This document shows, piece after piece, positions 709-64,000 of a stretch of DNA of 64,000 nucleotides (positions within the stretch are counted from its first letter, which is position 1; each line of letters opens with the position of its first letter). Position numbers and translations under genes: made by a program. Below the pieces are notes generated by a model. That model was not told the origin of the DNA. It was given only the letters and a program-made list of their open reading frames with translations, and did no database searches. The DNA is from Thermodesulfobacteriota bacterium. Lineage in GTDB: Bacteria; Desulfobacterota; BSN033; UBA1163. Location: contig JAOAHX010000008.1 of NCBI GenBank assembly GCA_026415035.1, positions 16,270 to 80,269 of the forward strand, given 5' to 3'.

Positions 709-780
709 GGGAACAAGGAAAAGGAATCCTGGAACCACGGGCAATATTGAAATACTTTATAGAAATTAGGAGCGATTTTC

Positions 781-2010
781 ATGAAAACTTTCCTTAAATG
801 GGTCATTTTTTCTTTTCACATCCTTCTCGGTTTGGAGGCAAGTTTTGCAGTGGAGTTCGAGGCCCAGACATGGGTTCGGTCGGATTGGTGGAAGGATGAC
901 GTCAATCGTCAGGGTCAGCAGGTCTACATCCCCATCTGTGCCGAAGCCCGTTTTCAAAATCTATCCCTGAGGATCCTTACTGGGGAGGCTTACACCCGAC
1001 TCGACCCGCGTAGAAATCCAAATCGTTCCCTGGCCACTCTCCTTGACACCAAAGTAAACTTTTCCTATGAAATCATTGAGAAATTGCCGGTTGATCTCCT
1101 CGTGGGCCTCGATTTCAACTTGCCCACCGGTAAATCGAACCTCAAGCTTAAAGATCGGGGACTCCTCATGGATCCGGACCTTGTCTCCATTAACAAATTT
1201 GGAGAAGGTTTTAACGTAAATCCCAACCTTAGCATTGCGAAGGATTGGGGAAGGTTCGCTGCGGGAGTCGGTTTGGGTTATGTCTGGAGAGGAGAATACG
1301 ATTTTACCACTCAGGTTTTGGAAATCAACGACTTCTTATTCGGAAGAATTATTAAATTTTATGCCCGGGATTATGATCCGGGGGAGATCTTCAATATCAA
1401 TGCTGAGCTCCGTTATGATGTTTTGCCGAGATTCCAGGGTCGTCTTTACAGCCAGTATGTCTGGTATGGCCGGGACAGGCTGAAGAAAAAGGACTTTTAT
1501 CAGGAAGGTGATCTTTGGATGGTTGGCATGGGGCTCCAATATTCCCAAGAGGAGTGGGAGGTGGAGATCACCTTAAGAGGGCTTCTCCGAGGGAAGAGCA
1601 AAGTGAAACAAGACCCAGGAGATGTTAGCTTGATTCCTCCGGACCGGTGGTATCTCTATGGACTCCGCCAGCCCATCCGGACCGAACCCAAAAACAGCCA
1701 CGGCGACGAATGGGTGGCGGATCTTTCGATCCGATATTTTCTCGACGAAAAGACCGCGCTGAAATCCTTTCTCCAAGGGCTTTACGTCACCAAAAACGAC
1801 TATCCCTTCGGCTCGCCCCGTTTCCTAGGGAGACGAGAGAAAGGCTCCCTCGGTCTCGGCCTCTCCAGGGTGTTGCATCCCTCGCTCCAGGGAGAGCTTA
1901 TCGGCAGAGCCTTCCTCATGCATGACGAAGAACGCTTTATGCCGGAATTTCAGAGCGAGCGGAATTACCGGGGATATTCCGTCGGTCTCTACCTGACCGG
2001 AAAGTTTTGA
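781..2010 (+). CDS. outer-membrane beta-barrel protein (signal peptide, C-terminal Phe)
   Basis: N-terminal hydrophobic signal MKTFLKWVIFSFHILLGLEASFA. Alternating amphipathic strands rich in Y/W/G/N. Ends ...LYLTGKF, a typical OMP C-terminal signature. An AGGAG-like RBS lies upstream. Confidence 0.55.
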   Translation: MKTFLKWVIFSFHILLGLEASFAVEFEAQTWVRSDWWKDDVNRQGQQVYIPICAEARFQNLSLRILTGEAYTRLDPRRNPNRSLATLLDTKVNFSYEIIEKLPVDLLVGLDFNLPTGKSNLKLKDRGLLMDPDLVSINKFGEGFNVNPNLSIAKDWGRFAAGVGLGYVWRGEYDFTTQVLEINDFLFGRIIKFYARDYDPGEIFNINAELRYDVLPRFQGRLYSQYVWYGRDRLKKKDFYQEGDLWMVGMGLQYSQEEWEVEITLRGLLRGKSKVKQDPGDVSLIPPDRWYLYGLRQPIRTEPKNSHGDEWVADLSIRYFLDEKTALKSFLQGLYVTKNDYPFGSPRFLGRREKGSLGLGLSRVLHPSLQGELIGRAFLMHDEERFMPEFQSERNYRGYSVGLYLTGKF

Positions 2011-2013
2011 ACC

Positions 2014-2514
2014 CTACCGAAGAAGTTCTTCGGCGGCCTTCCTCGTCGCCTCCATCCACCCTTCAAGGCTACCGGAGGCGGAAGTTTTCTGGACCGCCCT
2101 TCTCACCCTTCCGGTTTCGACTTCCACGAGCCTCAAATCGAGGCGCATCTGACCTCCGATGACCTGATAGCCGCCGAAGACCATCTGCTTCGCCCCGAGC
2201 ATTTTTCCCAGTCTCAGCCGGGTCGCTTCGTCGACCAAGGCGGTGGACCCCAGACGAAGCTCTTCAAGGGCAAGCAGAAGGCGCTGCCTCTCGACCACGA
2301 CATACTCCCTGCGCTCCTTCAGAAATTCGATGATCTTCCCGGCAAGGATTTCTCCCATGGGAAGCCTTGTCCCTTTGGCCGGGCTCAGATCATCGAGGTC
2401 CCAGACGGCGATCGTTTCTACCTTCTGCTCCCCCGGGGGGGAAGTGGCGCAGCCGGTCAGAATCCATAAGCCACACAAGAAAAAAATCGTCCCGGTCAGG
2501 TCTCTCTTCCTCAT
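2014..2514 (-). CDS. lipoprotein with CsgG/LpoB-like domain
   Basis: Lipobox LTGC after a signal peptide. Segments IAVWDLDDLS..., KIIEFLKERREYVVVERQRLLLALEELRLGSTALVD and LRLVEVETGRV follow the CsgG N-domain pattern. Confidence 0.6.
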   Translation of the reverse strand: MRKRDLTGTIFFLCGLWILTGCATSPPGEQKVETIAVWDLDDLSPAKGTRLPMGEILAGKIIEFLKERREYVVVERQRLLLALEELRLGSTALVDEATRLRLGKMLGAKQMVFGGYQVIGGQMRLDLRLVEVETGRVRRAVQKTSASGSLEGWMEATRKAAEELLR

Positions 2515-2518
2515 CGTC

Positions 2519-4474
2519 CTATCTCAATGCGACCTCCTCGGCCCTCTCCTGGACTTTGTCGTCTGTCCGGAAGGGCCGGGTCTGTTCGAGGATCTTGGCA
2601 TAGCTGAAATCTGGTTCGACCCGAACGACCTCCATCCGGCCCGCAGACTTGGGAGTGCCCCGTAGCGTCTTACCCTTATAGGTTATCTCTTCCCCTTCCT
2701 CGATCACTTCCAGTTTGGTTCCCACCACCATTCCATGTTTCGCCCCGAGATTGAGGACGACCTGGTCCCCCGTGACTTTGACGATATATCCCCTCAGAGG
2801 ATATTTGGTCACGACCGTCTTCAAAATCTCCCGATTCAGCTGAAAGAGTTCCTTTTCGAGAGAGGCTTGGGGAGGGATCTGTCGGGTGGTGACCTGCGGG
2901 ATGGCCGTGGTCTCGGTATCGATCAGCCTCAGATTGAGGAGCGTGCCCTGGGGGAGATAGAGGAGCGAGCCTGTGCCGATCAGCCTGGCCGCCAGAACCC
3001 GCCCCAATTTAAGGGCGGTCTCCGGATTGGCCAGTTCGGACGAGCCGATGTTCAGCTCCTCAAGGAGGCGGTCGATCAAAATCCTTTCGACGACCTTGAC
3101 CCTTCCGGAGGCATTGAGATGGTCCGCCAACTGACTCATCAGCACGGCTGAAAGACCATCTCTTTCGGCAAGGCCTCCCCTTTCCTGAAAATCGACAAAG
3201 GTCAGCACCATAGGGGGAGACGTCCAGGCGTCTTCGACCTTCCTGGCCTCTTCCTTTTGTGCCCTGAAGCGGGCGGCCAGCTCCTTCACAAGTTGATCGA
3301 CCCGTTCTTTTCGTTTGAGGTCTTTCTGAAGATCGATCATCTCCTGGGCCTTTTTGGCAAGGACGGCGGCAAAGGTGTCCGTCTTATCGAGGGCCAGGGC
3401 CATCCGGTAGGATTCGAGGGCCTGATCCCATTTGCCCTCTTTTTCAAAAGTCAACCCCTTATTGGTCGTCCCTTCGATATAATAAGGATCGATCTGGATC
3501 GCCTGGTCGTAGAATTCTCGAGCTTTACCATATTGTCCCGCGTTGGCGTAATAGCGTCCCATTTGATTGTAGCGGAGGGCCTCCTGATAGGGTTCGACGG
3601 TCTTTTTCTGTATCCCCTTCTGATATTCCGTCTCGGCCTCCTTCCTCTTATCCTGGGCGTAAAGCAGGTCGCCCTTGACGACGTGGACATAGGCTCGATC
3701 AGGGGCCTTCTGCTCGACCTCCCTCGCCAGCTGAAGGGCCTTTTCGGATTCCCCCTTCTTCGCATAGACCGTGGCGAGCCCCTCTTTGCCAAGGATCTCT
3801 CCCTGGCCACCCTTTTGAGAGACCTCTTTGAAGACCTCCTCAGCCTCCTTCAGGTTCTGCTCTTTGAGGGCCGCATAGCCCTTAACGGTCTGGGCTTTCA
3901 CGTTCTGGGGATTCTTCTTCACGACATCGTCGCTGATGGCCTTGGCAAGCTTGGTCTGCCTCCTCTGGAGCTCCCTTTCGGCGACCCGAACGAGCATCGC
4001 CTCCGTCGTCTTTCCCCCTCCCTGGAAGTAGTCGAGGACCTTCAGGCCTGGACCGAGGATACAAACCGTGGGAAGGACCTGCCGGGCCCGGTAAAGGTCG
4101 CTCACCTTGGCAACGTCCTGCAGAACCGGGAAGAGGATCCCCGTGCTTTCGACGAATTTCGAGACCTTCTCCCTGGAGGAGAGGGTGATGGCCCATACCG
4201 TCATCGACGCTTCCTGATGTTGTCTGGCAAGCTGGTGGAGGGTGAAGAGCCCCTCCTGGCTGGGCCGGGAGTCGACATCGAAAAAGTAGAGGATCACCAT
4301 CGATCGGTCCTTCAGCATCGAGAGGTCATGGACTTGGCCTTTCAGGTCTTTCAACGAGAAGGTGGGGGCGCTCTGGCCCGGTGCGACCTGTCCATAGCTT
4401 ACGGGCATGCCCAAGATCAGGAAGACCGTTACCGACATCAAGAAGCGACCCAGGTTGAGCACTGGCTTTTTCAT
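2519..4474 (-). CDS. secreted multidomain protein: thioredoxin/AhpC-TSA-like N-domain, TPR repeats, CsgG/LpoB-like domain, C-terminal beta domain
   Basis: Signal peptide MKKPVLNLGRFLMSVTVFLILG. FSLKDLKGQVHDLSMLKDRSMVILYFF is Trx-fold (AhpC/TSA)-like. The central region has Ala/Tyr-rich TPR-like repeats (YAKKGESEKALQLAREV...YYANAGQYGKAREFYDQAIQIDP). LSAVLMSQLADHLNASGRVKVVERILIDRLLEELNIGSSELAN and LRLIDTETTAI are CsgG-like. Confidence 0.65.
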   Translation of the reverse strand: MKKPVLNLGRFLMSVTVFLILGMPVSYGQVAPGQSAPTFSLKDLKGQVHDLSMLKDRSMVILYFFDVDSRPSQEGLFTLHQLARQHQEASMTVWAITLSSREKVSKFVESTGILFPVLQDVAKVSDLYRARQVLPTVCILGPGLKVLDYFQGGGKTTEAMLVRVAERELQRRQTKLAKAISDDVVKKNPQNVKAQTVKGYAALKEQNLKEAEEVFKEVSQKGGQGEILGKEGLATVYAKKGESEKALQLAREVEQKAPDRAYVHVVKGDLLYAQDKRKEAETEYQKGIQKKTVEPYQEALRYNQMGRYYANAGQYGKAREFYDQAIQIDPYYIEGTTNKGLTFEKEGKWDQALESYRMALALDKTDTFAAVLAKKAQEMIDLQKDLKRKERVDQLVKELAARFRAQKEEARKVEDAWTSPPMVLTFVDFQERGGLAERDGLSAVLMSQLADHLNASGRVKVVERILIDRLLEELNIGSSELANPETALKLGRVLAARLIGTGSLLYLPQGTLLNLRLIDTETTAIPQVTTRQIPPQASLEKELFQLNREILKTVVTKYPLRGYIVKVTGDQVVLNLGAKHGMVVGTKLEVIEEGEEITYKGKTLRGTPKSAGRMEVVRVEPDFSYAKILEQTRPFRTDDKVQERAEEVALR

Positions 4475-4486
4475 AAACTCCCTCCC

Positions 4487-5671
4487 TCATCTATTCCCTT
4501 CGCGGATGGGAATCAACCGCACCTGCAAAGGGGTTTCTCCTTCCTCGGTGATCTGGACCTGCGCCTCCCAGTCGTGGTGGTCTGGATGGGTGATCCGAAC
4601 CTCATGCTTGCCGACCGGAAGGCTCAAGGTTAAAGGGGCATTCCCTTTAAAAGCACCGTCGATGAAGACCTGTGCTCCGAGGGGATGACTCTCGATCCTC
4701 AACGAGCCCAGGAGGACCTTTTCCACGACATCCGGTTTCGACCCTTTCGAAGTGACAAACCAATAGCCTGTCCCCCCCAGGCCCAAAAGCATCAGAACCA
4801 ATATCAGCATGGGGAGAAAGCGCGATCTCGCCCCTTTCTCCTCTTGGGAGACGGAGGGCTTCTCTTCGACCGATTCCAGCAAGGCCCGGGCCAGGGCAGA
4901 ACCCGTTTGGAAGCGTTCCTCCGGCCCCTTTTTGAGGCATCTCAAAATGGTTTGAGACAGTTTCGGGGGAATGGACGGGTTGATCTGGGAAGGCTCGGGA
5001 GGATGGGCCTGGACGATGGCCTGGAAGATGGCCGACATATTTTCGCCCACAAAGGGCCTCTGACGGGTGGCCAGTTCGTAGAGCACGATGCCCAAAGAGA
5101 AGAGGTCCGAACGGCCATCCACCGGACGCCCCTGGACCTGCTCTGGCGACATGTAGGCTGGGGTGCCCAGGATCTCCCCGGCTTGCGTCTGAACCAGGGC
5201 CGAAGGGTCTTCGATGTGGGCGATTCCGAAATCGGTGATCTTGATCTGGCCGTCTTTTTGGAGGAGGATGTTGCTCGGTTTCACATCCCTGTGGACGATC
5301 CCCTTCTGATGGGCATAACCGAGGGTTTCGGCGATCTGGGCCCCCCAACGGGCGATCTCCTGAAAAGAGACCTTTCCCTCCTGAACCACCCGATTTAGCG
5401 GGATCCCTTCGAGGAGCTCCATGGCGATGAAGATGGTCCCATGGTCTTCCCCTACATCATAGATCGTCACGATGTTCGGGTGGGAAAGCCTGCCGATCGC
5501 CCTGGCTTCTTTCAGAAAGCGTTGGACAAAGGCCTCGCTGGTGACCCGGTCTTCCCGGAGCACCTTGAGGGCGATGGACCGGTCGATCTGGGGATCGTAC
5601 GCCTTATAGACGACCCCCATCGACCCTTTGCCCAGCTCTTCGATAATCTCGTAACGGCCGTATTTCATCAA
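4487..5671 (-). CDS. Ser/Thr protein kinase (Hanks-type) with TM segment and extracytoplasmic PEGA-like domain
   Basis: Kinase motifs are present: LGKGSMGVVYKA (Gly loop), ALK (VAIK-like), HRDVKPSNILL (catalytic loop), DFG, SPEQ. A Pro-rich linker leads to a TM helix (RFLPMLILVLMLLGLGGTGYWFV), then LGSLRIESHPLGAQVFIDGAFKGNAPLTLSLPVGKHEVRI, which is PEGA-like. Confidence 0.85.
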   Translation of the reverse strand: MMKYGRYEIIEELGKGSMGVVYKAYDPQIDRSIALKVLREDRVTSEAFVQRFLKEARAIGRLSHPNIVTIYDVGEDHGTIFIAMELLEGIPLNRVVQEGKVSFQEIARWGAQIAETLGYAHQKGIVHRDVKPSNILLQKDGQIKITDFGIAHIEDPSALVQTQAGEILGTPAYMSPEQVQGRPVDGRSDLFSLGIVLYELATRQRPFVGENMSAIFQAIVQAHPPEPSQINPSIPPKLSQTILRCLKKGPEERFQTGSALARALLESVEEKPSVSQEEKGARSRFLPMLILVLMLLGLGGTGYWFVTSKGSKPDVVEKVLLGSLRIESHPLGAQVFIDGAFKGNAPLTLSLPVGKHEVRITHPDHHDWEAQVQITEEGETPLQVRLIPIREGNR

Positions 5672-5674
5672 GGG

Positions 5675-6631
5675 TCAATCCTTCATGAAGTCCGCGAGGG
5701 TGGAGACGGGGATGAGAAACCCGATCCCCGAAACCCCCCGATACCTCCCCTTGATCATCCCCACCAAATGCCCTTCACGGTCAAAGACGGGGCTTCCGCT
5801 GCTTCCCGGTTGAATCTCCATTTCCGCCTGATAAAGGGGAAGATCATTGACCCACCTCATGGGGCCGTCGATCGTACCGGTGAGGAAGCGTCTCGTATGA
5901 TTGGGACAGCCGAGGGCGAAGATTTTATCTCCGTGTTGGAGGGGTCTCCGAATGGGCGAAAGGGGAACCGAGACATTCCATTTCGAGCGGATATCGATCA
6001 GAGTCAGATCCCGGCGGGGATCGATCTTCTTGATGGAACCCCGTAGGATCCGTCCATCCGGAAGGGTGACCGAGACCTCCGAGATGCCTTTGAGATCGTG
6101 CGCGGTGGATAGGATGAGGCCTTTGCGGTCCGCGACGAAGCCGGTAAACTGCATCGTTTCCTTCCCGTTGGAGACGCCCAGACAGACCAGGGCCTCCATT
6201 TTCTGCTGGACTTTCTGTGGAATCGTCTCAGAAACTTTCTCGGAGGCTCTCGGACATTCTTCTTTGAATTGGCCCTCAAGAAAGGCCTCAAGGTCAGCCA
6301 GGACCTCCTCCGAAGTTCTCATCTCCCCTTCCCCACGAAGGACCTGGACCTGGGTGGCTAAGGCCGATTTCGGCCTGAGGACGAGGACCAACACCTCCTT
6401 CTCTTTTTTGATTCCCCTGAGGTGAATCTCCAACCCTTCCCTCTCCTGTCGGTGAACCTCTAAGCCCCCTTGGAGAAGCCATCGGACGAGGAGATGCTCG
6501 ATCTCTCTTACGGGAAGGGGGAGAAGCTTCTCTTCGGCCCGAGGGAAAACAGGGCTCGCGGAGAAGATCAAGAGGAGCCAGAGGAGAACAGCCCGACATC
6601 GGTTCGGCCTCACCTTTCCTCCATCTCGCAC
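5675..6631 (-). CDS. secreted trypsin-like serine peptidase (S1 family)
   Basis: Signal peptide is present. LILSTAHDL carries the catalytic His context and GSSGSPVFDREGHLVGM is the GDSGGP-like Ser motif. The 5' end overlaps the 3' end of the PP2C gene by about 22 nt. Confidence 0.7.
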   Translation of the reverse strand: MRDGGKVRPNRCRAVLLWLLLIFSASPVFPRAEEKLLPLPVREIEHLLVRWLLQGGLEVHRQEREGLEIHLRGIKKEKEVLVLVLRPKSALATQVQVLRGEGEMRTSEEVLADLEAFLEGQFKEECPRASEKVSETIPQKVQQKMEALVCLGVSNGKETMQFTGFVADRKGLILSTAHDLKGISEVSVTLPDGRILRGSIKKIDPRRDLTLIDIRSKWNVSVPLSPIRRPLQHGDKIFALGCPNHTRRFLTGTIDGPMRWVNDLPLYQAEMEIQPGSSGSPVFDREGHLVGMIKGRYRGVSGIGFLIPVSTLADFMKD

Positions 6632-7344
6632 AAGACCACGGTGATATTGTCCTTTCCCCCTGCGGCCTTGGCCAGATCGATCAGGCCCTCCCCTTTTTGA
6701 TCGAGGCGGAGGGAGGAGTGGAGGAGGTTCAAGATTTCATCATCCTCCACCATATCGGTCAACCCATCCGAGCAGAGCAGAAAGAGGTCGCCCGGAAAGA
6801 CCCTCCCTCTGATCAAATCCAAGGCTAAGGCCTCTTCAATGCCAACGGCCCGGAGGATGACGTGCCGCATGGGATGGTGTTTTGCCTCCTCTTTCTGGAG
6901 CAGCCCCTGATCGATCTGTGCCTGAAGATAAGAGTGGTCCCGGGTCAGCTGTCTCAATTCTCCTTTTCTCAGGAGGTAGGTCCGGCTATCGCCCACATGG
7001 CCTAAGACGTAGGTCTGATTCGAGAAGGTGATCAGTTCTGCCGTGCAACCGAGGCCCTGATGATGGGGATGGGTGGCCGAATATTTCAGGATCTTTTCAT
7101 TGGCAAGCTGGAAGGCCTTTTGGACCGACCTGGAGCTCTCCTCTCCGGGGCGTAGGATTGAGGTGGAAAAGACCTCGAGGGCGGTATCGATAAAGATTTG
7201 GCTTGCGACTTCCCCTGCGGCCGCCCCCCCCATGCCATCGGCAACCACAAAGAGATTTAATTCGGGTTTTATGAGGAAGGCGTCTTCGTTGTTGGCCCGT
7301 TTCAAGCCCGGATCGGACCTGCCGTAAGACCGTATTTCAAACAT
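6610..7344 (-). CDS. PP2C-family Ser/Thr protein phosphatase
   Basis: GRSDPGLKRANNEDAF, VADGMGGAAAGEVAS, LCSDGL and GGKDNITVVL are the canonical PPM/PP2C motifs. Confidence 0.85.
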   Translation of the reverse strand: MFEIRSYGRSDPGLKRANNEDAFLIKPELNLFVVADGMGGAAAGEVASQIFIDTALEVFSTSILRPGEESSRSVQKAFQLANEKILKYSATHPHHQGLGCTAELITFSNQTYVLGHVGDSRTYLLRKGELRQLTRDHSYLQAQIDQGLLQKEEAKHHPMRHVILRAVGIEEALALDLIRGRVFPGDLFLLCSDGLTDMVEDDEILNLLHSSLRLDQKGEGLIDLAKAAGGKDNITVVLCEMEER

Positions 7345-7428
7345 GACTCATTATACAAAAATTGTCTCTGTATTGGCAATAATTTTTCTTGACCCGGGGG
7401 ACGGGTTGGTTATAATTTATTCGGACCG

Positions 7429-8313
7429 ATGAAGAAAGCCCCGTTAATCATAGCCCAATTTTTCCACATCAAAGGGCCCTTGCCTGTGAACGGGAAGGAG
7501 GCGGAGTTTTCGAGCCCTTCCATCACCATCGGCCGACATCCCTCGAGCCAGCTCCGTTTTCCCGGAGATCTCACCTATATCTCCCGCCAGCATGCCGAGA
7601 TCGTCCGCGAGGGCAATCAATTTAAGCTGATCGATCACAGCACCAACGGCACCTACGTGAATGGGAAAAGGGTGAAGGAGATTTTCCTGAAAGACGGAGA
7701 TGTCCTGATGTTCGGCGAGGGAGGGCCTCAGGTGAGTTTCCTCACCCGGATGGCAGAGGGGAGCCTCGAAAGCGAGGCGGTGCCCGTCCCACCCCCTCGT
7801 GTGACCGAAAAGGAGGTTGGAGGAGAGCCGCCCCGGATCGAGAAACCTTCCATACCCTCCCCACCTCCCGAACCAAAGATTTCGGAGGTCTCCCCTCAGG
7901 TGGTTAAAGTACCGCTGATCATCCAGTACGGACCCACCATCCGCTCTTTCAAACAATTACCCGTCACCATCGGAAAAGGCCCTGCCTGCGACTATCCCTT
8001 GGAACATCCCGCCCTCCATGACCAACACGCCCAGATTTTTTTCAGCGAGGGCCAATACTACGTCAGAGACCTGACCGGCCAGAAATTGGTCCATATCGAC
8101 CGAAGGCCCATCGACTTCCAGGCCCCTTTAAAGGCAAGCGACGAACTGGCACTGACCCCCCAAGGACCCTTCTTTCGATTCTTCGGCGAGGGCCGCCTGG
8201 GCGAGGTGGAGGAAGTCAAAGAGGAAGCGCCTATGGAGGCCCCAAAGACTTCCCCGGAGCCATCGGAAGAAAAATCTGTCCTTTCGAAGTTAAAAAAGAT
8301 CTTTAAATCCTGA
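7429..8313 (+). CDS. protein with two FHA domains
   Basis: ITIGRHPSSQLRF...ISRQHAEIVREGNQFKLIDHSTNGTYVNGKRV and VTIGKGPACDYPL...AQIFFSEGQYYVRDLTGQKLVHIDRRPI are both FHA signatures. A Pro-rich linker sits between them. The gene is divergent from the kinase/phosphatase operon. Confidence 0.8.
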   Translation: MKKAPLIIAQFFHIKGPLPVNGKEAEFSSPSITIGRHPSSQLRFPGDLTYISRQHAEIVREGNQFKLIDHSTNGTYVNGKRVKEIFLKDGDVLMFGEGGPQVSFLTRMAEGSLESEAVPVPPPRVTEKEVGGEPPRIEKPSIPSPPPEPKISEVSPQVVKVPLIIQYGPTIRSFKQLPVTIGKGPACDYPLEHPALHDQHAQIFFSEGQYYVRDLTGQKLVHIDRRPIDFQAPLKASDELALTPQGPFFRFFGEGRLGEVEEVKEEAPMEAPKTSPEPSEEKSVLSKLKKIFKS

Positions 8314-58471: not shown

Positions 58472-58511
58472 GCTTCGAAAGGAGAACTTCTCTTTTTGAG
58501 GAACGGGTGGA

Positions 58512-59039: not shown

Positions 59040-59136
59040 ACTCTCCTCCTGACGACCTGCTGAGATTTGTAAACGCTAAGGTCTATCATATCTTAATTTT
59101 TTCGATCCATCAAGAGAAATCGCCGTTGGGGTTATC

Positions 59137-59165
59137 TTGACTTTAGAAGGCCCATTCAGTATAGT
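59137..59165 (+). promoter_or_regulatory. sigma70-like promoter (TTGACT-17nt-TATAGT) upstream of the T6SS-linked genes
   Basis: Near-consensus -35 and -10 hexamers with 17-nt spacing, about 100 nt upstream of the 59267 start codon. Confidence 0.45.
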
Positions 59166-59266
59166 GAGGTAATAAATGAGTGAATAAATAACAATAGATC
59201 CGTGGGTGAAAAGGTTGGGTCCCTTTCTACCGTTCCCCCCGGAGATTCCCTCATCTCAAGATCAAG

Positions 59267-59647
59267 ATGAACCGTGAGCAACGCCTTCAGGAAGAAGAGC
59301 GGCTCGCCCTTTATCGAATCCTTAAAGGAATTCTCGAGCATTGGCGAGCCGAGTTAAAACAACAGGAAGAGGAATTTACGGAAACCGTCGTCCTTTCTCC
59401 AGGCAGGGGTGGACGGCCAGCCGTTGCCTCTGAGTCGGAAACCCCGATCGAGGGGGAGGTTCTTACGGCCACCGTCATCCTGCCGTCTCAGAGAGGCCCC
59501 ATAACCCCTCCTGCCGTTGCGGAGGCAGAGGGGCGCATCGCGGAGCCAACCGAACCCCAAAAGGGGAAGCATCCCGAGACGGAAGAGTGTCTCGAAGAGA
59601 CCGTGATCCTTAAGCCCAAAACGCCTAAGGGAAAAGGAATTGGATAG
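59267..59647 (+). CDS. hypothetical protein, first gene of T6SS-linked operon
   Basis: 126-aa ORF with coding-like composition, Glu-rich N-terminus and Pro-rich C-terminus. Overlaps the next gene by 8 nt. Confidence 0.45.
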   Translation: MNREQRLQEEERLALYRILKGILEHWRAELKQQEEEFTETVVLSPGRGGRPAVASESETPIEGEVLTATVILPSQRGPITPPAVAEAEGRIAEPTEPQKGKHPETEECLEETVILKPKTPKGKGIG

Positions 59648-60380
59648 GGCCCTCTCGCTCGAACGGTTGACGGAAGAAGTCCAAACGATCTATCGATCCC
59701 TTCCAGAAGGGGCAGAGGAGGCGATAGAGGCCTATCTTCGTAACGCCCTAAAAAGCCAATCCACCGAAGACCGATTGGCCTTGCTCGAGGCCCTGGTCCG
59801 ACAGTTCGAGACGCCCTCTCCTCCTCCGTCCCAAGAGGGCCACCCTCTTCCCGAAGAAATCTCCCGCCTGTTTTCGCTCCTCTTCGGGCAGAGGATCCCG
59901 AAGGCCGGGCTCACTTCTCCAGACTTACTCGAAGAACTGGCCCATGTCCTCAATACCCTCTTCGACACCTTGAACGAGATCATCCGGACCATCGACACAA
60001 CCCTGCTTGGTAAGAGGCCAGAGCTCGAGACCATCCGGCACATCATCGGAAAGCAGCTGACCGCCGAGGTCCCCCCCGAACCCCTTCAACAATATCTCTC
60101 CAGGATCCAAGAGGCCTTTTTGATCTCTCACAAGGCCTTCCAGGAGGCCGCCCAGACCAAACTCGGAGAACTGCTGGAGGAGCTCAGCCCGCAACGCTTT
60201 GAGTCGGAGCCCGTGGATCGGTTCAAGATCGGCCCCCTACGGAAGGCCGAATTCTTTGAACGGTACAAGGAAAAATTTCTCACCTTAAAGAAATGGTTCG
60301 AGTCGGGCCGTTTCAGAGAAGAGCTCTTGAGAGAGTTTGAGAAATCGTGCCAGAAGCTCTATGATGCTAAACGGAGGTAG
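59640..60380 (+). CDS. hypothetical helical protein, T6SS-linked
   Basis: 246 aa, predicted mostly helical. Lies immediately upstream of tssJ in the same orientation. Confidence 0.5.
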   Translation: MDRALSLERLTEEVQTIYRSLPEGAEEAIEAYLRNALKSQSTEDRLALLEALVRQFETPSPPPSQEGHPLPEEISRLFSLLFGQRIPKAGLTSPDLLEELAHVLNTLFDTLNEIIRTIDTTLLGKRPELETIRHIIGKQLTAEVPPEPLQQYLSRIQEAFLISHKAFQEAAQTKLGELLEELSPQRFESEPVDRFKIGPLRKAEFFERYKEKFLTLKKWFESGRFREELLREFEKSCQKLYDAKRR

Positions 60381-60384
60381 AACG

Positions 60385-60921
60385 ATGAATCTGAGGACCC
60401 TGTGGATCTTCTCTCTCGTCGCCTGTTTGGTCCTTTCCTCCTGCGCTACCGTCGTCATCCCGCCGAGCTGGGAGTATGAACCCAATGCGATCCGCCTCAA
60501 CCTGAAAAGCGATGCCCAGCTCAATCTCTTCCAAGGGAGGGCCCATACCCTCGTCCTCTGTGTCTATCTCTTATCCGACCCCAATGAACTCAACCAGCTT
60601 GTGGACGAAAGAGGTGGCCTCGAAAAGCTCTGCGAATGCACCAAGTTTCATCCCAGCGTGACCTTTGCGAAACGGTTTATCATCCATCCGAATCGGGAGT
60701 ATAAGGAGACCCTGGACCGCGCGGCGGGGGCAAAGTATGTGGCCCTCGTGGCCGGATACTTCAAACTCCAGAAGGAGAATGTGGTCAAGCTCTACTCGAT
60801 TCCGATCGTGGAGGAGAAGAAGAAGGGCAATATCTATCAGAAGCCCGGCCCCCTCTCGATCGATCTCTACCTGGGATCCCAACAACTTCAGGATACGAAA
60901 CCCGCTCCAGAGAAAAAGTGA
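60385..60921 (+). CDS. tssJ: type VI secretion lipoprotein TssJ-like
   Basis: GGAGG RBS. Lipobox LSSC. Size (~178 aa) and position directly upstream of tssK-tssL-tssM. Start placed at MNLRT (60385). Confidence 0.7.
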   Translation: MNLRTLWIFSLVACLVLSSCATVVIPPSWEYEPNAIRLNLKSDAQLNLFQGRAHTLVLCVYLLSDPNELNQLVDERGGLEKLCECTKFHPSVTFAKRFIIHPNREYKETLDRAAGAKYVALVAGYFKLQKENVVKLYSIPIVEEKKKGNIYQKPGPLSIDLYLGSQQLQDTKPAPEKK

Positions 60922-61008
60922 CCCTGCTCTGAATCAAGGCTAAGGAGACATTCCGTTCCCCTTCTTCAAAGGGAATCCTTCGAGACGGGGGAGAAGGAGA
61001 CAACACGC

Positions 61009-62397
61009 ATGGAGATTCAAAGACCCCTCTTCTGGCATCAAGGGCTCTTCCTCCAGCCCCAGCATTTCCAGCTGTTAGACCTTTCCTTCCAATCGCTCCT
61101 CATCCCCTTTCACCAATTCATGGAACCCCATTTCTGGGGGGTGGGCGAGGTGGAGATCCATAAGGCCGGACTGGGGTTGAGAACGTTCAATCTCCTCAAA
61201 GGCTCCTTCCTCTTCCCAGACGGCACCTTTGTCGTCTTTCCTGGGAATGGGATCGTCGAGGCCAGGTCTTTCCACGAGGCCTGGACCGACGGAGGAAAGC
61301 CCTTCACCGTCTTCATCGGACTGAAGAAGATGAACCCGGCAGGGGAGAACGTGACCGTCGTCGACACCTTGGAAAACCTCTCGAAGGTTACGACCCGATT
61401 CGTCACGACCCCCAACCCGGAGGAGGTGAGAGATCTTCACTCCGGAGGCCCCGTGGGGCAGGTCAAGAGGCTTTACTACCTCCTCAAGGTCTTCTGGGAG
61501 ACCGAAAGGGAGCAATTGGGAGATTATGTGCTCATCCCTGTCGCCCAGCTCGAAAGGATGGGCGAGGAGGTCCGGCTCTCACCGCGGTTCATCCCCCCCT
61601 GTTTGACCCTCTCCGGCTCCGAACCTCTTCTGCGTCTCATCAAAGAGATTCGGGACCAGCTGGCTTCAAGGGCCCACCAGCTCGAGGAGTATAAAAGCCA
61701 ACGGGGGGTCCACACGGCCGAGTTTGGTTCAAGGGATATGGTCTACCTCCTGGCCTTGCGGTCCCTGAACCGGTATGTGCCCCCTCTTTACCACGCGACC
61801 GAGGCCCAGCTGACCCATCCATGGGCGATCTATGGTCTGCTGAGGCAGTTGATCGGAGAGCTTTCGTCCTTTTCCGAGCGGATCAATGTCATGGGAGAGC
61901 AGGAGGATGGAACCCGGGCCCTCTTAGGATACGACCATCAGAATTTATGGGAGTGCTTCTCAACGGCCCAGGCTCTGATCGTCCAGCTTCTCGATGAGAT
62001 CACCGCCGGGCCAGAATACGTGATCCCCCTCGTTTATGACGGGACCTATTATGCCGCTTCCCTCAAGCCGACGATCTTCGAAGGCCGAAACCGCTTCTAC
62101 CTCGTCCTAAAGACCGAAGAGGACATGAAGTCGGTGGTGAAGTCGGTCGAGACGATGGCCAAGCTGAGCGCCCGGGAGCATTTGCCTATTTTGATCGCCC
62201 GTGCCCTTCCTGGCATCGGGCTGGAGCACCTTCCCGTTCCGCCCCAAGAGCTGCCCCGCAGGGCCCATTCGGTCTATTTTGCCGTCAATCACCACAGCGA
62301 CCAATGGTCGTTGGTTCAGAAGACCCATAACCTCGCCCTCTACTGGGATAATGCCCCGGAAGACCTGGAGGTGGAGTTGATGGTGGTGGGACGATAA
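61009..62397 (+). CDS. tssK: type VI secretion baseplate protein TssK
   Basis: N-terminal PLFWHQGLFLQPQHFQ is the hallmark of TssK. Length 462 aa. Confidence 0.85.
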   Translation: MEIQRPLFWHQGLFLQPQHFQLLDLSFQSLLIPFHQFMEPHFWGVGEVEIHKAGLGLRTFNLLKGSFLFPDGTFVVFPGNGIVEARSFHEAWTDGGKPFTVFIGLKKMNPAGENVTVVDTLENLSKVTTRFVTTPNPEEVRDLHSGGPVGQVKRLYYLLKVFWETEREQLGDYVLIPVAQLERMGEEVRLSPRFIPPCLTLSGSEPLLRLIKEIRDQLASRAHQLEEYKSQRGVHTAEFGSRDMVYLLALRSLNRYVPPLYHATEAQLTHPWAIYGLLRQLIGELSSFSERINVMGEQEDGTRALLGYDHQNLWECFSTAQALIVQLLDEITAGPEYVIPLVYDGTYYAASLKPTIFEGRNRFYLVLKTEEDMKSVVKSVETMAKLSAREHLPILIARALPGIGLEHLPVPPQELPRRAHSVYFAVNHHSDQWSLVQKTHNLALYWDNAPEDLEVELMVVGR

Positions 62398-62407
62398 GGA
62401 GAGATCT

Positions 62408-63085
62408 ATGCACCTCACTGATGCCTTCATGGAACTGGTGGCCTATGTGGTCTATTTCGTCAAGACAGCGGGGGCCAAACAGCCCCCTTATGAACAAGTC
62501 AAGGCCGACGTCCTGAGGCTTCTCAGCCAGAGCGAATCGGTGGTGAAGCGGGGTCTTTTTTCCCAGGAGGATTACGATCTGGCACGCTTCATGGTCTGTG
62601 CCTGGATCGATGAGGCGATCCTCAACTCCGATTGGAACCAAAAATCACAATGGCAGAGAGAGCCCCTCCAGCGCCTCTATTACCATACCCTCGAGGCCGG
62701 CGAGGAGGCCTTTGAACGGCTCAACCACCTCGGCCTTCACCAGAGGGACGTCCGGGAGGTTTACTACCTCTGTCTCGCCCTCGGGTTCAAGGGTCGATTT
62801 CACCATCCGGGCGATGAGCATCTCTTAGAACAGGTCAAGACCTCCAATCTGAAACTCCTTCTGGGTAGTTCGGTGGGCCTGCCTTCCCTGGAGAGGGCCG
62901 AACTCTTTCCGGAAGCCCACCCGGTCGAAGCCGTGGAGATCGGCCCCCAGAAAGGGAAGTTTCGATTCTCGGCCTTTACCCTCGCCTGCCTGGTCGGACC
63001 GGTGATTCTCTTCGGCCTTCTCTTTCTGATCTACCAGTTCGCCTTGGGCGGGGTGGGAGAAAATCTTCTTAAGGCGGTGCCGTAG
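62408..63085 (+). CDS. tssL: type VI secretion membrane protein TssL (DotU family)
   Basis: YYLCLALGFKGRF DotU motif and a single C-terminal TM (LACLVGPVILFGLLFLIY). Confidence 0.8.
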   Translation: MHLTDAFMELVAYVVYFVKTAGAKQPPYEQVKADVLRLLSQSESVVKRGLFSQEDYDLARFMVCAWIDEAILNSDWNQKSQWQREPLQRLYYHTLEAGEEAFERLNHLGLHQRDVREVYYLCLALGFKGRFHHPGDEHLLEQVKTSNLKLLLGSSVGLPSLERAELFPEAHPVEAVEIGPQKGKFRFSAFTLACLVGPVILFGLLFLIYQFALGGVGENLLKAVP

Positions 63086-64000
63086 ATGAAAACCCTACTC
63101 TTGAAATATCTGAAGTACGCCCTGATCGGAATGGCCTTCCTCTTCGTCATCCTGCTGGCCTTTGCTCTGGTCCTTCTCCTCAACTGGCCCTGGTGGATGG
63201 GGTTCTTCTTGGTCCTCTTCCTCCTCGCTCTGGGCGTCCTCTTCCTCCTTCTGAGAAAGATCTGGCTCAAACGGAGAGAGGAGAGGTTCGTCCAGCAGGT
63301 GATCGAGCAGGACGAATCGAACCTCAAGGCCCTATCGGGCAAGGAGAAAGACGACCTCAAGGAGCTGCAACTCCGATGGAAGGAGGCGGTGGAGGCCCTG
63401 AGGCGATCCCATCTGAGGAAGTATGGGAATCCCCTGTACGTCCTTCCCTGGTATATGGTGCTGGGAGAAAGCGGGTCGGGAAAGACGACGGCCATCACCA
63501 GTGCCCGCCTCTCTTCTCCCTTCGCCGAGGTGAGTCGAACCTCTGGGCTATCGGGAACCAAGAACGTCGATTGGTGGTTCTTCGAACAGGCCATCATCCT
63601 CGACACCGCAGGGAGGTACGCCATCCCCATCGATGAAGGACGAGACAAGGAGGAGTGGCAGAAATTCCTGTCGCTGCTCGTCCGATACCGGAGAAAGGAG
63701 CCCCTACACGGCCTGATCATTGCCGTGGCGGCCGATCGACTTCTCGAAGGTCGAGCCGAGGCCCTCGAAGAGGATGGGAAGCAGATTCGGCGCAGGATCG
63801 ACGAATTGATGAGGGTCCTCGGGGCCAAATTTCCCGTCTATGTCCTGGTGACTAAATGCGATCTGGTCCAGGGGATGACCCAGTTCTGCGAGCAGCTCCC
63901 GGAGAAGAGCCTCGACCAGCCCATGGGATACATCAACCAGGATCTCCAAACCGATGTGGTCACGGTGCTGGAGAAGGCCTTTCAGTCCATCGGTGAGCGC
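63086..64000 (+). CDS. tssM: type VI secretion membrane protein TssM (IcmF family), 3'-truncated by window end
   Basis: N-terminal TM hairpin, then LPWYMVLGESGSGKTT (Walker A) and DTAGRY. The ORF continues to the window end. TGATG-type coupling with tssL. Confidence 0.85.
   Translation, partial: MKTLLLKYLKYALIGMAFLFVILLAFALVLLLNWPWWMGFFLVLFLLALGVLFLLLRKIWLKRREERFVQQVIEQDESNLKALSGKEKDDLKELQLRWKEAVEALRRSHLRKYGNPLYVLPWYMVLGESGSGKTTAITSARLSSPFAEVSRTSGLSGTKNVDWWFFEQAIILDTAGRYAIPIDEGRDKEEWQKFLSLLVRYRRKEPLHGLIIAVAADRLLEGRAEALEEDGKQIRRRIDELMRVLGAKFPVYVLVTKCDLVQGMTQFCEQLPEKSLDQPMGYINQDLQTDVVTVLEKAFQSIGER

What the first reader, a model, noticed from the sequence alone, without database searches (positions are those of the whole stretch)
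59137..64000. Start of a type VI secretion cluster (promoter, two unknown genes, tssJ, tssK, tssL, tssM) running off the window
TssK (PLFWHQGLFLQPQHFQ), TssL/DotU (YYLCLALGFKGRF plus C-terminal TM) and TssM/IcmF (LPWYMVLGESGSGKTT) are unambiguous. A lipobox protein of TssJ size precedes them. The operon appears to start at a near-consensus sigma70 promoter (TTGACT-17-TATAGT at 59137-59165). Two uncharacterized genes follow, of 126 aa (acidic/Pro-rich) and 246 aa (helical), which could be new accessory or regulatory components. No tssB, tssC, hcp, vgrG or clpV lie upstream. They are presumably downstream of the window, while a TssB-like fusion and an fha/kinase/phosphatase set sit 50 kb upstream, suggesting a dispersed T6SS.
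Basis: partly seen in the sequence, partly recalled or inferred. Interest (0 to 1): 0.55.

Follow-up and report, generated by a model that had tools for sequence, protein, structure and literature searches.

The report
T6SS cluster start with split Fha scaffold
This is the true start of an ordinary type VI secretion gene cluster, but its two "unknown" leading genes appear to be the assembly-scaffold protein Fha/TagH split into separate pieces, one of which carries three strictly conserved threonine motifs that may act as phosphorylation switches.

Summary
A sigma70-type promoter (59137-59165) is followed on the + strand by ORF1 (126 aa), ORF2 (246 aa), tssJ, tssK, tssL and the first 305 codons of tssM. 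Curated profiles identify the four core genes. In close relatives (TssK 82-85% identical) the same cluster continues with tagF, tssA, tssB, tssC, hcp, hcp, tssE, tssF, tssG, clpV and vgrG. The source contig beyond base 64000 could not be retrieved.

The new result concerns the two leading ORFs. They are coding and translationally coupled, and in other genomes they occur fused in one protein at the same position, upstream of tssJ. ORF2 is an all-helical protein weakly related to the C-terminal domain of the T6SS FHA protein TagH/Fha, but it has no FHA domain. ORF1 is a disordered chain with three invariant Thr residues in "acidic-L-x-E-T-V-I-L-S-P" motifs. In most relatives ORF1 is the tail of an unannotated 620-811 aa protein.

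The kinase, PP2C and double-FHA genes at 4.5-8.3 kb abut this cluster in relatives. I infer a threonine-phosphorylation-controlled Fha scaffold split into three genes. The phosphorylation step itself is untested. This is a new variant of a known kind, of moderate interest.

The parts
59137..59165 (+). sigma70-type promoter, TTGACT-17-TATAGT, 102 nt upstream of the ORF1 ATG
   Evidence: 10/12 consensus match. The -35/-10 block is conserved in 6 of 7 close loci despite unalignable flanks. No sigma54-like site in 59040-59266.
59267..59647 (+). ORF1, 126 aa: N-terminal amphipathic helix (LALYRILKGILEHWR) followed by a disordered acidic/Pro-rich chain with three E-T-V-I-L type motifs (T40, T69, T112). 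Proposed linker module of a split Fha scaffold.
   Evidence: Annotated CDS N3G78_06835. Homologs of 128-134 aa in 7 loci, and as the C-terminal tail of 634-764 aa proteins in 14 loci. T40/T69/T112 are the only invariant columns apart from M1. dN/dS 0.26-0.39. The equivalent tail has pLDDT 32-40 in the AF2 model. Fused to the ORF2 domain in P0170, P0180 and P0208.
59640..60380 (+). ORF2, 246 aa, all-helical: an FHA-less relative of the C-terminal domain of TagH/Fha. The TTG start overlaps the ORF1 stop by 8 nt.
   Evidence: PF20232 at 22.5 bits (cutoff 23.7). 29 of 30 family members hit PF20232 at E<0.01. hhalign against Rhizobium Fha residues 250-371 gives E 0.0037. AF2 pLDDT 74 with 11 helices. 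275 clusters in 1.84e9 proteins, almost all standalone at about 245 aa. Always directly upstream of tssJ. Overlap geometry ATGAATAG/TTGGATAG is conserved.
60385..60921 (+). tssJ, outer-membrane lipoprotein (lipobox LSSC, Cys20)
   Evidence: PF12790 9.1e-15; TIGR03352 39.2 bits, above the 31.6 cutoff.
61009..62397 (+). tssK, baseplate subunit
   Evidence: PF05936 2.5e-109; TIGR03353 329.6 bits.
62408..63085 (+). tssL (DotU family, short form with C-terminal TM, no peptidoglycan-binding domain)
   Evidence: PF09850 2.8e-39; TIGR03349 141 bits.
63086..64000 (+). tssM, the first 305 codons of about 1155; cut by the window end
   Evidence: PF14331 9.8e-37; TIGR03348 4.9e-69. Full length is 1155 aa in L001, L004 and L035.
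7429..8313 (+). Two-FHA-domain protein (294 aa): proposed trans-acting FHA module of the split scaffold
   Evidence: PF00498 5.1e-31 over 2 stretches. Homologs lie immediately upstream of the ORF1/long-form gene in L015, L021, L022, L023, L024 and L025. By eye, FHA1 keeps the GR/SRQH/NG residues and FHA2 does not.
4487..5671 (-). Membrane Ser/Thr kinase with an extracytoplasmic PEGA domain: proposed PpkA/TagE analogue
   Evidence: Pkinase 1.7e-58, PEGA 8.9e-16. A 61%-identical homolog lies about 1.1 kb upstream of the ORF1 homolog in L005, with only the protease gene between them (that gene ends 184 nt before ORF1). Another homolog is in L025.
6610..7344 (-). PP2C phosphatase: proposed PppA/TagG analogue
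   Evidence: PF00481 2.4e-16, PF13672 5.4e-16.
31..6631 (.). Envelope module that travels with the cluster in relatives: CsgG-like (31-708), 409-aa OM-like protein (781-2010), CsgG-like lipoprotein (2014-2514, -), AhpC/TSA-TPR-CsgG/FlgT_C protein (2519-4474, -), kinase, and trypsin-like protease (5675-6631, -)
   Evidence: Pfam. The same genes in the same order and orientation sit directly against ORF1-ORF2-tssJ in L005. CsgG-like plus OM409 also lie upstream of the long form in L014, L016 and L023.

Best explanation
The region is the promoter-proximal end of a complete type VI secretion system of the TssJLM-containing (T6SS-i) kind. The likely gene order is ORF1-ORF2-tssJ-tssK-tssL-tssM-tagF-tssA-tssB-tssC-hcp-hcp-tssE-tssF-tssG-clpV-vgrG.

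ORF1 and ORF2 together stand where fha/tagH stands in canonical clusters, and they are a split, FHA-less version of that assembly scaffold.
- ORF2 is the helical C-terminal domain. In studied Fha proteins this domain contacts the membrane complex and baseplate and drives condensate formation.
- ORF1 is the disordered linker. It carries an amphipathic helix and three invariant threonine motifs.
- The two genes are translationally coupled, so they are probably made in matched amounts. In some genomes they are one polypeptide.

Inferred mechanism:
1. The membrane Ser/Thr kinase at 4487-5671, fed by the neighbouring envelope proteins, phosphorylates the Thr of the E-T-V-I-L motifs. The acidic residues upstream and the hydrophobic residue at +3 fit the preferences I recall for bacterial Hanks-type kinases and for pT-x-x-[I/L]-binding FHA domains.
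2. The separately encoded two-FHA protein (7429-8313) docks on these phosphothreonines.
3. The resulting multivalent ORF1/ORF2/FHA assembly nucleates the membrane complex and baseplate.
4. PP2C (6610-7344) and TagF (downstream) switch it off.

My probabilities: T6SS start about 0.97; ORF1+ORF2 as one Fha-like unit about 0.75; phospho-Thr/FHA docking on the motifs about 0.35-0.4.
For: Shown directly:
- Core genes by curated profiles.
- Full colinear cluster in relatives with TssK 82-85% and TssL 88-91% identity.
- ORF2-tssJ-K-L-M order in 27 genome loci and 20 metagenome loci across Thermodesulfobacteriota, Nitrospirota, Brocadia, Deferribacteres and Geobacterales.
- ORF1 is conserved, with the three Thr as the only invariant columns, and under purifying selection.
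- 200 motif instances in 61 family proteins, nearly all in the disordered C-terminal tails. The logo is D/E(-7..-4) L(-3) E(-1) T V I L S P.
- Natural ORF1-ORF2 fusions (P0170, P0180, P0208). The genes for P0170 and P0180 lie directly upstream of tssJ; P0208's context was not looked up.
- The 8-nt stop/start overlap is conserved.
- PF20232 hits in 29 of 30 ORF2 family members, plus a colinear hhalign match to the post-FHA region of a canonical Fha.
- The two-FHA gene lies directly upstream of the ORF1/long-form gene in 6 loci. The order FHA / Thr-motif chain / C-domain mirrors the domain order of canonical Fha.
- The kinase block lies against the cluster in L005.

From the literature:
- Fha consists of an FHA domain, a disordered region and a helical C-domain. 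The disordered region is indispensable, while deleting the FHA domain only impairs function. Fha binds TssL/M and TssE/F/G/K (bioRxiv 10.1101/2023.12.21.572528).
- V. cholerae makes a free FHA-less C-terminal isoform that cooperates with full-length Fha (PMC13389060).
- PpkA phosphorylates Fha, PppA reverses it, and TagF sequesters Fha (PMC13584744, PMC12607579).
Against: - ORF2's similarity to the TagH C-domain is weak. It scores 22.5 bits, below Pfam's 23.7 cutoff. hhalign E-values are only 0.004-0.045 with low probabilities. NCBIfam TagH did not hit, and Foldseek found no PDB match.
- No data show that the Thr motifs are phosphorylated or bound by FHA. An invariant Thr in a beta-prone V-I-L context could equally be a structural or 'sticker' motif.
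- The motif is absent from three canonical TagH/Fha proteins.
- The FHA and kinase genes are next to the cluster in only a minority of the fetched loci. In this genome they are 51 kb away and sit beside a TssB-TssC-like gene, so they could serve something else.
- The downstream part of this particular contig was not seen.
Confidence: 0.6

Rival explanations
1. ORF1+ORF2 is an Fha-like scaffold, but the E-T-V-I-L motifs are not phosphosites. They would be short beta-strand or 'sticker' motifs that bind a T6SS partner (TssK, TssL, TssM, TagF, or the folded N-domain of the long form), or drive condensation by multivalency. In that case the distant kinase/PP2C/FHA set acts on another target, such as TssL as in Agrobacterium, or on the adjacent TssB-TssC-like protein.
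For: - The motif is hydrophobic and beta-prone, flanked by Pro, and repeated 1-7 times (most often 3-6), as in multivalent linear-motif arrays.
- FHA and kinase genes are adjacent in only 6-7 of the loci with visible upstream DNA.
- In the window the FHA gene is followed directly by the sheath-like 521-aa gene.
- Studied Fha disordered regions drive condensation by themselves (bioRxiv 10.1101/2023.12.21.572528).
Against: - Strict invariance of the Thr specifically (200 of 200 instances, while +1..+3 vary among V/I/L/M), with E at -1 and an acidic run upstream, is more typical of a kinase/FHA recognition site than of a generic hydrophobic strand.
- The gene order FHA / Thr-motif protein / C-domain in the Geobacterales loci is hard to explain otherwise.
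Confidence: 0.3
2. ORF2 is an unrelated helical T6SS accessory protein, and its resemblance to the TagH C-terminal domain is spurious. ORF1/ORF2 would then be a clade-specific accessory pair with some other role, for example a chaperone/adaptor or a membrane-complex cofactor.
For: - Every sequence-based link is below or near threshold.
- There is no structural match.
- The exhaustive profile search returned, among the 150 best of its 275 hits, only this narrow family and no canonical FHA-bearing TagH proteins.
Against: - 29 of 30 independent family members hit the same Pfam model in the same region.
- The matches are colinear with the post-FHA part of real Fha/TagH proteins.
- ORF2 occupies exactly the fha slot in an fha-tssJ-K-L-M-tagF gene order.
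- It is preceded by a disordered module and, in some genomes, by an FHA gene.
Confidence: 0.15
3. ORF1 is a decaying remnant left when the 5' part of the long-form gene (about 530 codons) was deleted, and it no longer functions. Only ORF2 onward matters.
For: - The long form is the commoner and more widespread state: 14 of the 22 aligned loci, plus 45 database hits that are nearly all long.
- Intermediate lengths exist (164, 278 and 357 aa).
Against: - The short form is kept at 126-134 aa in 8 genomes that have diverged to 30-40% identity.
- All three Thr motifs, the helix and the coupled stop/start overlap are retained.
- dN/dS is 0.26-0.39, not about 1.
- The same module is fused to ORF2 in other lineages.
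Confidence: 0.05

Closest known systems
Pseudomonas aeruginosa H1-T6SS fha1-tssJ1-tssK1-tssL1-tssM1-tagF1-pppA-ppkA operon with the TagQRST threonine phosphorylation pathway
   Same: - Same order of scaffold gene, then tssJ-K-L-M, then tagF (the H1 gene order is from my own knowledge).
- Same cast of Hanks-type membrane kinase, PP2C phosphatase, FHA protein and TagF (PMC13584744).
- An envelope-located module is encoded next to the kinase.
   Different: - Fha1 is one polypeptide (FHA, linker, C-domain). Here these are three genes.
- The kinase has a PEGA rather than a vWA periplasmic domain.
- The envelope genes are CsgG-like/AhpC-TPR/OM proteins, not TagQRST.
- The kinase/PP2C/FHA genes lie 51 kb from the cluster.
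- All genes are colinear rather than in two divergent operons.
Vibrio cholerae Fha dual isoforms (FhaL and internally initiated FhaS; PMC13389060)
   Same: A free-standing FHA-less C-terminal Fha product exists and works together with an FHA-bearing partner. The C-terminal helical domain is the functional core.
   Different: - In Vibrio both products come from one gene through an internal start. Here the C-domain has its own gene, and the linker is yet another gene.
- Vibrio lacks the kinase and phosphatase.
Acidovorax citrulli Fha (FHA 1-101, disordered region 102-561, helical C-domain 562-777; bioRxiv 10.1101/2023.12.21.572528, PMC12607579)
   Same: Three-part logic with an essential disordered region and a helical C-domain. 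PpkA phosphorylates Fha.
   Different: - It is a single chain.
- No E-T-V-I-L repeat is described, and none was found in the three canonical TagH/Fha proteins I examined.
Mycobacterium tuberculosis Rv1747 regulatory module (two FHA domains joined by a phospho-Thr-bearing disordered linker; PMC3138270, otherwise own knowledge)
   Same: Two FHA domains plus several pThr sites in a disordered chain, phosphorylated by a neighbouring Hanks kinase. This gives multivalent self-association.
   Different: - It belongs to an ABC transporter, not a secretion machine.
- The FHA domains and the linker are covalently joined.
Pfam PF20232 T6SS_FHA_C / NCBIfam TagH (TIGR03354)
   Same: ORF2 family members match PF20232 profile positions about 72-176 and occupy the tagH locus position.
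   Different: - Scores are at or below the gathering threshold.
- There is no FHA domain.
- TIGR03354 gave no hit.

Membership tests
Type VI secretion system, TssJLM-containing (T6SS-i) gene cluster | Membrane-complex genes tssJ, tssL and tssM present | tested here: met
   PF12790, PF09850, PF14331; TIGR03352, TIGR03349, TIGR03348. tssM is seen only for its first 305 codons.
Type VI secretion system, TssJLM-containing (T6SS-i) gene cluster | Baseplate subunit tssK present | tested here: met
   PF05936 2.5e-109; TIGR03353 329.6 bits against a cutoff of 100.
Type VI secretion system, TssJLM-containing (T6SS-i) gene cluster | Remaining core genes (tssA, B, C, hcp, E, F, G, clpV, vgrG) in the same genome | not testable with these tools
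   The source contig beyond base 64000 is not retrievable. All of these genes are present and colinear in relatives L035 and L043, and as far as hcp in L001 and L004. None is elsewhere in the window.
TagH/Fha (T6SS-associated FHA-domain protein) | N-terminal FHA domain in the same polypeptide | tested here: not met
   No PF00498 hit in ORF1, ORF2, the 30 ORF2 family members scanned, or the fusion proteins. An FHA protein is encoded separately at 7429-8313.
TagH/Fha (T6SS-associated FHA-domain protein) | C-terminal T6SS_FHA_C domain (PF20232) | tested here: inconclusive
   ORF2 scores 22.5 bits against a cutoff of 23.7. 29 of 30 members hit at E<0.01, best 4.7e-7. hhalign E-values are 0.0037-0.045, colinear with the post-FHA region of canonical proteins. 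There is no PDB structure to compare with.
TagH/Fha (T6SS-associated FHA-domain protein) | Long disordered linker preceding the C-domain | tested here: met
   The linker is supplied by ORF1 as a separate, translationally coupled gene. The homologous tail has pLDDT 32-40. It is covalently joined to the ORF2 domain in P0170, P0180 and P0208.
TagH/Fha (T6SS-associated FHA-domain protein) | Encoded directly upstream of tssJ/tssK in the cluster | tested here: met
   The position is the same as tagH in Photobacterium (L123) and fha in Rhizobium (L120).
Threonine phosphorylation pathway (TagE/PpkA, TagG/PppA, TagH, TagF) | Hanks-type kinase, PP2C phosphatase and FHA protein genetically linked to the T6SS | tested here: met
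   All three are present in the window at 4.5-8.3 kb. Linkage is by synteny in relatives: kinase in L005 and L025; FHA in L015 and L021-L025. The PP2C gene was not found next to any fetched cluster.
Threonine phosphorylation pathway (TagE/PpkA, TagG/PppA, TagH, TagF) | Scaffold Thr actually phosphorylated by the kinase and read by FHA | not testable with these tools
   There is only indirect evidence: the Thr are invariant, upstream residues are acidic, and L/I sits at +3 in 94% of 200 motifs.
Threonine phosphorylation pathway (TagE/PpkA, TagG/PppA, TagH, TagF) | TagF repressor in the cluster | not testable with these tools
   tagF would lie beyond the window. It is present right after tssM in L001 and L035 (PF09867).
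Bacterial sigma70 promoter | -35 and -10 hexamers with 16-18 nt spacing, placed upstream of the first gene and conserved | tested here: met
   10/12 match with a 17-nt spacer, conserved in 6 of 7 loci. The transcription start itself is not testable here.

The most novel reading that the evidence does not exclude
The ORF1 family defines an undescribed T6SS accessory module. It is a disordered chain carrying an array of 1-7 (most often 3-6) invariant 'acidic-L-x-E-T-V-I-L-S-P' threonine motifs. These would work as a multi-site phospho-barcode, written by a PpkA-like kinase and read by a separately encoded two-FHA protein. The Fha assembly scaffold would then be built non-covalently from three gene products (FHA reader, phospho-linker, helical C-domain) rather than from one chain. 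In most lineages the linker is attached to a 500-aa Cys-rich, possibly kinase-fold domain, which has no family annotation and would be a new T6SS-associated protein.
Probability: 0.35. Interest if true: 0.65.

Novelty: new variant of a known kind. Interest (0 to 1): 0.45.

Why it matters
Fha/TagH has recently moved from "accessory regulator" to the scaffold that seeds T6SS assembly through condensates. How its FHA domain, disordered region and C-domain divide the work is an active question (bioRxiv 10.1101/2023.12.21.572528; PMC12607579; PMC13389060).

This clade spans Thermodesulfobacteriota, Nitrospirota, anammox Planctomycetota, Deferribacteres and Geobacterales. In it, nature has already separated these parts into different genes, in several combinations: split, fused, or attached to a large unknown domain.

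That makes the division of labour directly testable:
- Each part can be deleted or mutated on its own.
- The three invariant threonines give precise targets for testing phospho-control.

It also assigns a role to two "hypothetical" gene families and shows that a kinase/phosphatase/FHA locus 51 kb away probably belongs to the same machine. For genome annotation, the ~245-aa family should be labelled as an FHA-less TagH-C-like protein.

Tried and rejected
- **Source contig beyond the window:** exact-sequence look-ups of TssL and ORF2 (P0001) found no record, so downstream content rests on relatives.
- **Single-sequence search with ORF1:** returned only itself. A profile was needed, and it mainly recovered long forms.
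- **Pfam and NCBIfam on six long-form proteins:** no family.
- **N-terminal domain of the long form elsewhere in the window:** tblastn found nothing.
- **Foldseek of the ORF2 model against the PDB:** nothing (best E 2.9).
- **Foldseek of the long-form model:** no significant hit. The weak top hits are nearly all protein-kinase folds (E 0.036-3, TM at most 0.36). I treat this as a hint only.
- **Canonical TagH comparators:**
  - The Serratia plasmid neighbour looks, by my reading of its sequence, like a TssA/ImpA-type protein rather than TagH; it was not profile-scanned.
  - The FHA proteins in L097 and L109 do not look like TagH. By my reading they are FHA-transglycosylase proteins; they were not profile-scanned.
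  - Three real ones were found, but profile-profile scores stayed weak.
- **TssW (PMC12607579):** considered as a match for the long form and rejected, because TssW is a secreted outer-membrane protein.
- **Rfam scan of 58400-61100:** only a sub-threshold chance hit.
- **sigma54 promoter:** none in the intergenic region.
- **Distant T6SS clades** (TssK 65% identical or less): they start directly at tssJ with no ORF2 or TagH, so the module is clade-specific.

Full report
**1. Observation**

The ORF map and sequence show a colinear + strand series.
- ORF1 at 59267-59647 (126 aa).
- ORF2 at 59640-60380 (246 aa; TTG start overlapping the ORF1 stop).
- A lipoprotein gene at 60385-60921.
- Three further genes at 61009-62397, 62408-63085, and 63086 to the window end.

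Curated profiles identify the last four as TssJ, TssK, TssL and TssM:
- TssJ: PF12790 9e-15; TIGR03352 above cutoff.
- TssK: PF05936 2.5e-109.
- TssL: DotU 2.8e-39; short form with a C-terminal TM.
- TssM: N-terminal 305 residues; PF14331 9.8e-37; TIGR03348 4.9e-69.

Upstream neighbours on the opposite strand are unrelated: rubrerythrin at 58512-59039 and BioY at 57423-57986, plus what looks by eye like an ABC ATPase at 56649-57392 (not profile-scanned). The 227-nt gap 59040-59266 is therefore a divergent promoter region.

The proposed promoter TTGACT-17-TATAGT (59137-59165) scores 10/12. An alignment of the regions upstream of ORF1 in seven close loci keeps TCTTGACTT-N17-TATAGT-like hexamers in six of them, while the surrounding DNA is unalignable. 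That is a phylogenetic footprint. No sigma54-type site and no Rfam element lies there.

**2. Source and downstream content**

ORF1 and ORF2 are identical to NCBI proteins N3G78_06835 and N3G78_06840 of a Desulfobacterota MAG, on a 112,781-bp contig. The contig itself could not be fetched.

A TssK-based scan of species-representative genomes gave 34 related loci. In L001 and L004 (TssK 82-85% identical), tssM (1155 aa) is followed by tagF, tssA, tssB, tssC and hcp.

A TssC-anchored metagenome scan gave L035 (TssK 83%, TssL 91% identical). There the whole cluster is visible and colinear: ORF2, tssJ, K, L, M, tagF, tssA, B, C, hcp, hcp, tssE, F, G, clpV, vgrG. L043 is the same.

For this genome it remains an inference. 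No other core T6SS gene is in the window.

**3. ORF2**

ORF2 belongs to a compact family. An exhaustive HMMER search found 275 clusters (at 50% identity) among 1.84 billion representatives, almost all standalone proteins of 232-262 aa.

The evidence linking it to the TagH/Fha C-terminal domain is as follows.
- Its only profile similarity is to PF20232, the C-terminal domain of the T6SS FHA protein TagH/Fha: 22.5 bits against a cutoff of 23.7 for ORF2 itself, with 29 of 30 family members hitting at E<0.01 and a best E of 4.7e-7.
- Profile comparison with canonical proteins taken from annotated plasmids gives weak but colinear matches to their post-FHA region. These were Rhizobium Fha upstream of tssK-L-M-tagF, Photobacterium TagH upstream of tssJ-K, and a Pseudomonas TagH fragment. 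E-values were 0.0037, 0.045 and 0.042.
- The AF2 model is all-helical (pLDDT 74), matching published descriptions of the Fha C-domain. It has no PDB neighbour.
- ORF2 has no FHA domain.
- It lies directly upstream of tssJ in 27 genome loci and 20 metagenome loci from five phyla or classes.
- More distant T6SS clades start at tssJ with nothing in this slot.

**4. ORF1**

ORF1 has no family hit, but it is not noise. Homologs of 128-134 aa precede the ORF2 homolog in L001-L004, L006, L007 and L021. In 14 other loci the gene in that position encodes a 634-764 aa protein whose last ~130 residues are ORF1-like.

In the 22-sequence alignment, the only invariant columns besides the start Met are ORF1's T40, T69 and T112. 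Across 61 family proteins there are 200 motif instances, nearly all in the C-terminal tails. The logo is D/E at -7 to -4, L at -3, E at -1 (190 of 200), T at 0, V at +1, I at +2, L/I at +3 (188 of 200), S at +4 and P at +5.

The linkers between motifs are hypervariable and rich in Pro, Glu and Lys. In the AF2 model of a long form the tail is disordered (pLDDT 32-40), while residues 1-490 fold confidently.

dN/dS for ORF1 is 0.26-0.39 in unsaturated pairs, against 0.12-0.21 for ORF2. This is purifying selection, relaxed as expected for a disordered protein with motif islands.

The ORF1 stop and the ORF2 start overlap as ATGAATAG (TTGGATAG in the window), and this geometry is conserved. That indicates translational coupling.

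**5. ORF1 and ORF2 are one unit**

Among the ORF2-profile hits, three proteins carry an ORF1-like N-terminus joined directly to the ORF2 domain: P0170 (415 aa), P0180 (546 aa) and P0208 (432 aa). Each has a helix of the IHEILKKVIKKL type, then repeated E-T-x-I-L motifs in a disordered chain. None has an FHA domain.

The genes for P0170 and P0180 lie directly upstream of tssJ, and for P0180 upstream of tssJ-tssK-tssL-tssM.

Four architectures therefore occupy the same locus position:
- long form, then the C-domain as a separate gene;
- short ORF1, then the C-domain as a separate gene (this window);
- a fused linker-C-domain protein;
- in canonical systems, FHA-linker-C-domain in one chain.

**6. 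Link to the remote kinase/phosphatase/FHA set**

Pfam confirms the genes at 4.5-9.9 kb: Pkinase+TM+PEGA, Trypsin_2, PP2C, a two-FHA protein, and a VipA+VipB single-chain protein.

Synteny ties them to the cluster.
- Homologs of the two-FHA protein lie immediately upstream of the ORF1/long-form gene in L015 and L021-L025. The gene order FHA / Thr-motif chain / C-domain there mirrors the domain order of canonical Fha.
- L005 (TssK 81% identical) carries the whole block of window 31-6631 in the same order and orientation, ending 184 nt before its ORF1 homolog. That block comprises the CsgG-like protein, the 409-aa OM-like protein, the CsgG lipoprotein, the AhpC-TPR protein, the kinase and the protease.
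- L014, L016 and L023 carry the CsgG-like and OM-like genes upstream of the long form.

In this genome the module is simply displaced by about 51 kb.

By eye, FHA1 keeps the canonical phosphothreonine-binding residues (GR, SRQH, NG) and FHA2 does not. This is inference from sequence and general knowledge of FHA domains.

**7. Mechanism**

The published framework is as follows.
- PpkA phosphorylates Fha, PppA reverses it, and TagF sequesters Fha (PMC13584744, PMC12607579).
- Fha consists of an FHA domain, a disordered region and a helical C-domain. It binds TssL/M and the baseplate proteins. Its disordered region is indispensable, whereas loss of the FHA domain only impairs function (bioRxiv 10.1101/2023.12.21.572528).
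- V. cholerae makes a free FHA-less C-terminal isoform that cooperates with the full-length protein (PMC13389060).

Against this background, the best-supported reading is that ORF1+ORF2 form the linker and C-domain of an Fha scaffold, and that the FHA reader is supplied in trans.

The step I infer but cannot show is that the invariant Thr are phosphorylated by the PEGA kinase and bound by FHA1. Acidic residues upstream and a large hydrophobic residue at +3 fit what I recall of bacterial Hanks-kinase substrate motifs and of pT-x-x-[I/L] FHA specificity. This rests on my own knowledge and was not tested here.

The main rival is that the motifs are phosphorylation-independent binding or sticker elements.

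**8. Comparison and novelty**

The cluster itself is an ordinary T6SS-i. ORF2 fails the defining FHA-domain test for TagH and passes the C-domain test only weakly. I therefore file it as "works like the Fha C-domain; membership suggestive", not as TagH.

I did not find the following in the literature I searched:
- the split architecture;
- the E-T-V-I-L threonine array, which is absent from three canonical TagH/Fha proteins;
- the long form, which has no Pfam or NCBIfam family. It has invariant Cys clusters suggesting zinc ribbons, and only weak kinase-fold hits from Foldseek.

Verdict: a new variant of a known kind. Interest is moderate, because it offers a naturally dissected version of a scaffold that is currently under active study.

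Noticed in passing
window 8348-9913 (+): A 521-aa single-chain protein combines a TssB/VipA-like N-terminus (residues 5-97) with a TssC/VipB-like middle part (about 160-420). It has no hit to the C-terminal gp25-like VipB_2 domain and is encoded directly after the two-FHA gene. PDB sequence hits are to TssC/VipB chains (5n8n_B 2.8e-18; 9n4v_A 'DUF877 family protein') and to TssB (5urw_1A). No ortholog was seen next to the T6SS clusters in the fetched loci. Its role is unknown; it could be a sheath-like regulator or another target of the kinase/FHA set.
   Followed up: partly
L008-L016, L018-L020, L022-L025 (for example L009:808-2883, L011:6489-8753); proteins P0122-P0164: The long form of ORF1 (620-811 aa) is an unannotated family with no Pfam or NCBIfam hit. 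Its folded N-terminal region of about 490 aa has invariant Cys clusters (FHPPCPxCG...C...RYLxCxxC; FPCxxCxxxxxC), suggestive of zinc ribbons. Foldseek finds only weak hits, nearly all protein-kinase folds (best E 0.036, TM at most 0.36). It may be a pseudokinase-like T6SS accessory domain.
   Followed up: partly
window 31-4474, and L005:1246-5671, L014, L016, L023: A set of envelope genes travels with this T6SS clade across phyla: a CsgG-like protein, a 409-aa OM-like protein with no family, a CsgG-like lipoprotein, and an AhpC/TSA-TPR-CsgG/FlgT_C protein. It may be the sensor input to the kinase, analogous in role but not in sequence to TagQRST.
   Followed up: partly
window 60337-60365 (+): A second 10/12 sigma70-like site (TTGAGA-17-TATGAT) lies inside the 3' end of ORF2, just upstream of tssJ. 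It could be an internal promoter. Its conservation was not checked.
   Followed up: no
proteins P0175, P0241, P0243 (367-370 aa): Some ORF2-family members carry a triplicated copy of the N-terminal helical sub-domain (three matched stretches) rather than an ORF1 fusion. This shows that the N-terminal ~60 residues of ORF2 form a separable repeatable unit.
   Followed up: no
protein P0208 (432 aa): This ORF1-ORF2 fusion has an N-terminus made of about five and a half copies of a 35-aa repeat (MRPPGKEESTKPVTPSSEEGELSKTVVLSHDDIKK), all but the last identical. Each copy carries one Thr motif. This suggests recent tandem amplification of the motif unit.
   Followed up: no
L004:3676-6344: In one close relative, a GAF histidine kinase and an NtrC-type sigma54 activator lie about 1.9 kb upstream of ORF1, separated from it by an AMP-ligase gene. 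The promoter in front of ORF1 is nevertheless still the conserved sigma70-type one.
   Followed up: no
window 7374-7389 (+): A sigma54-like sequence (TGGCAATAATTTTTCT, 2 mismatches) lies 40 nt upstream of the two-FHA gene. The window-wide count of such matches is not above chance (10 found against 13.8 expected).
   Followed up: no
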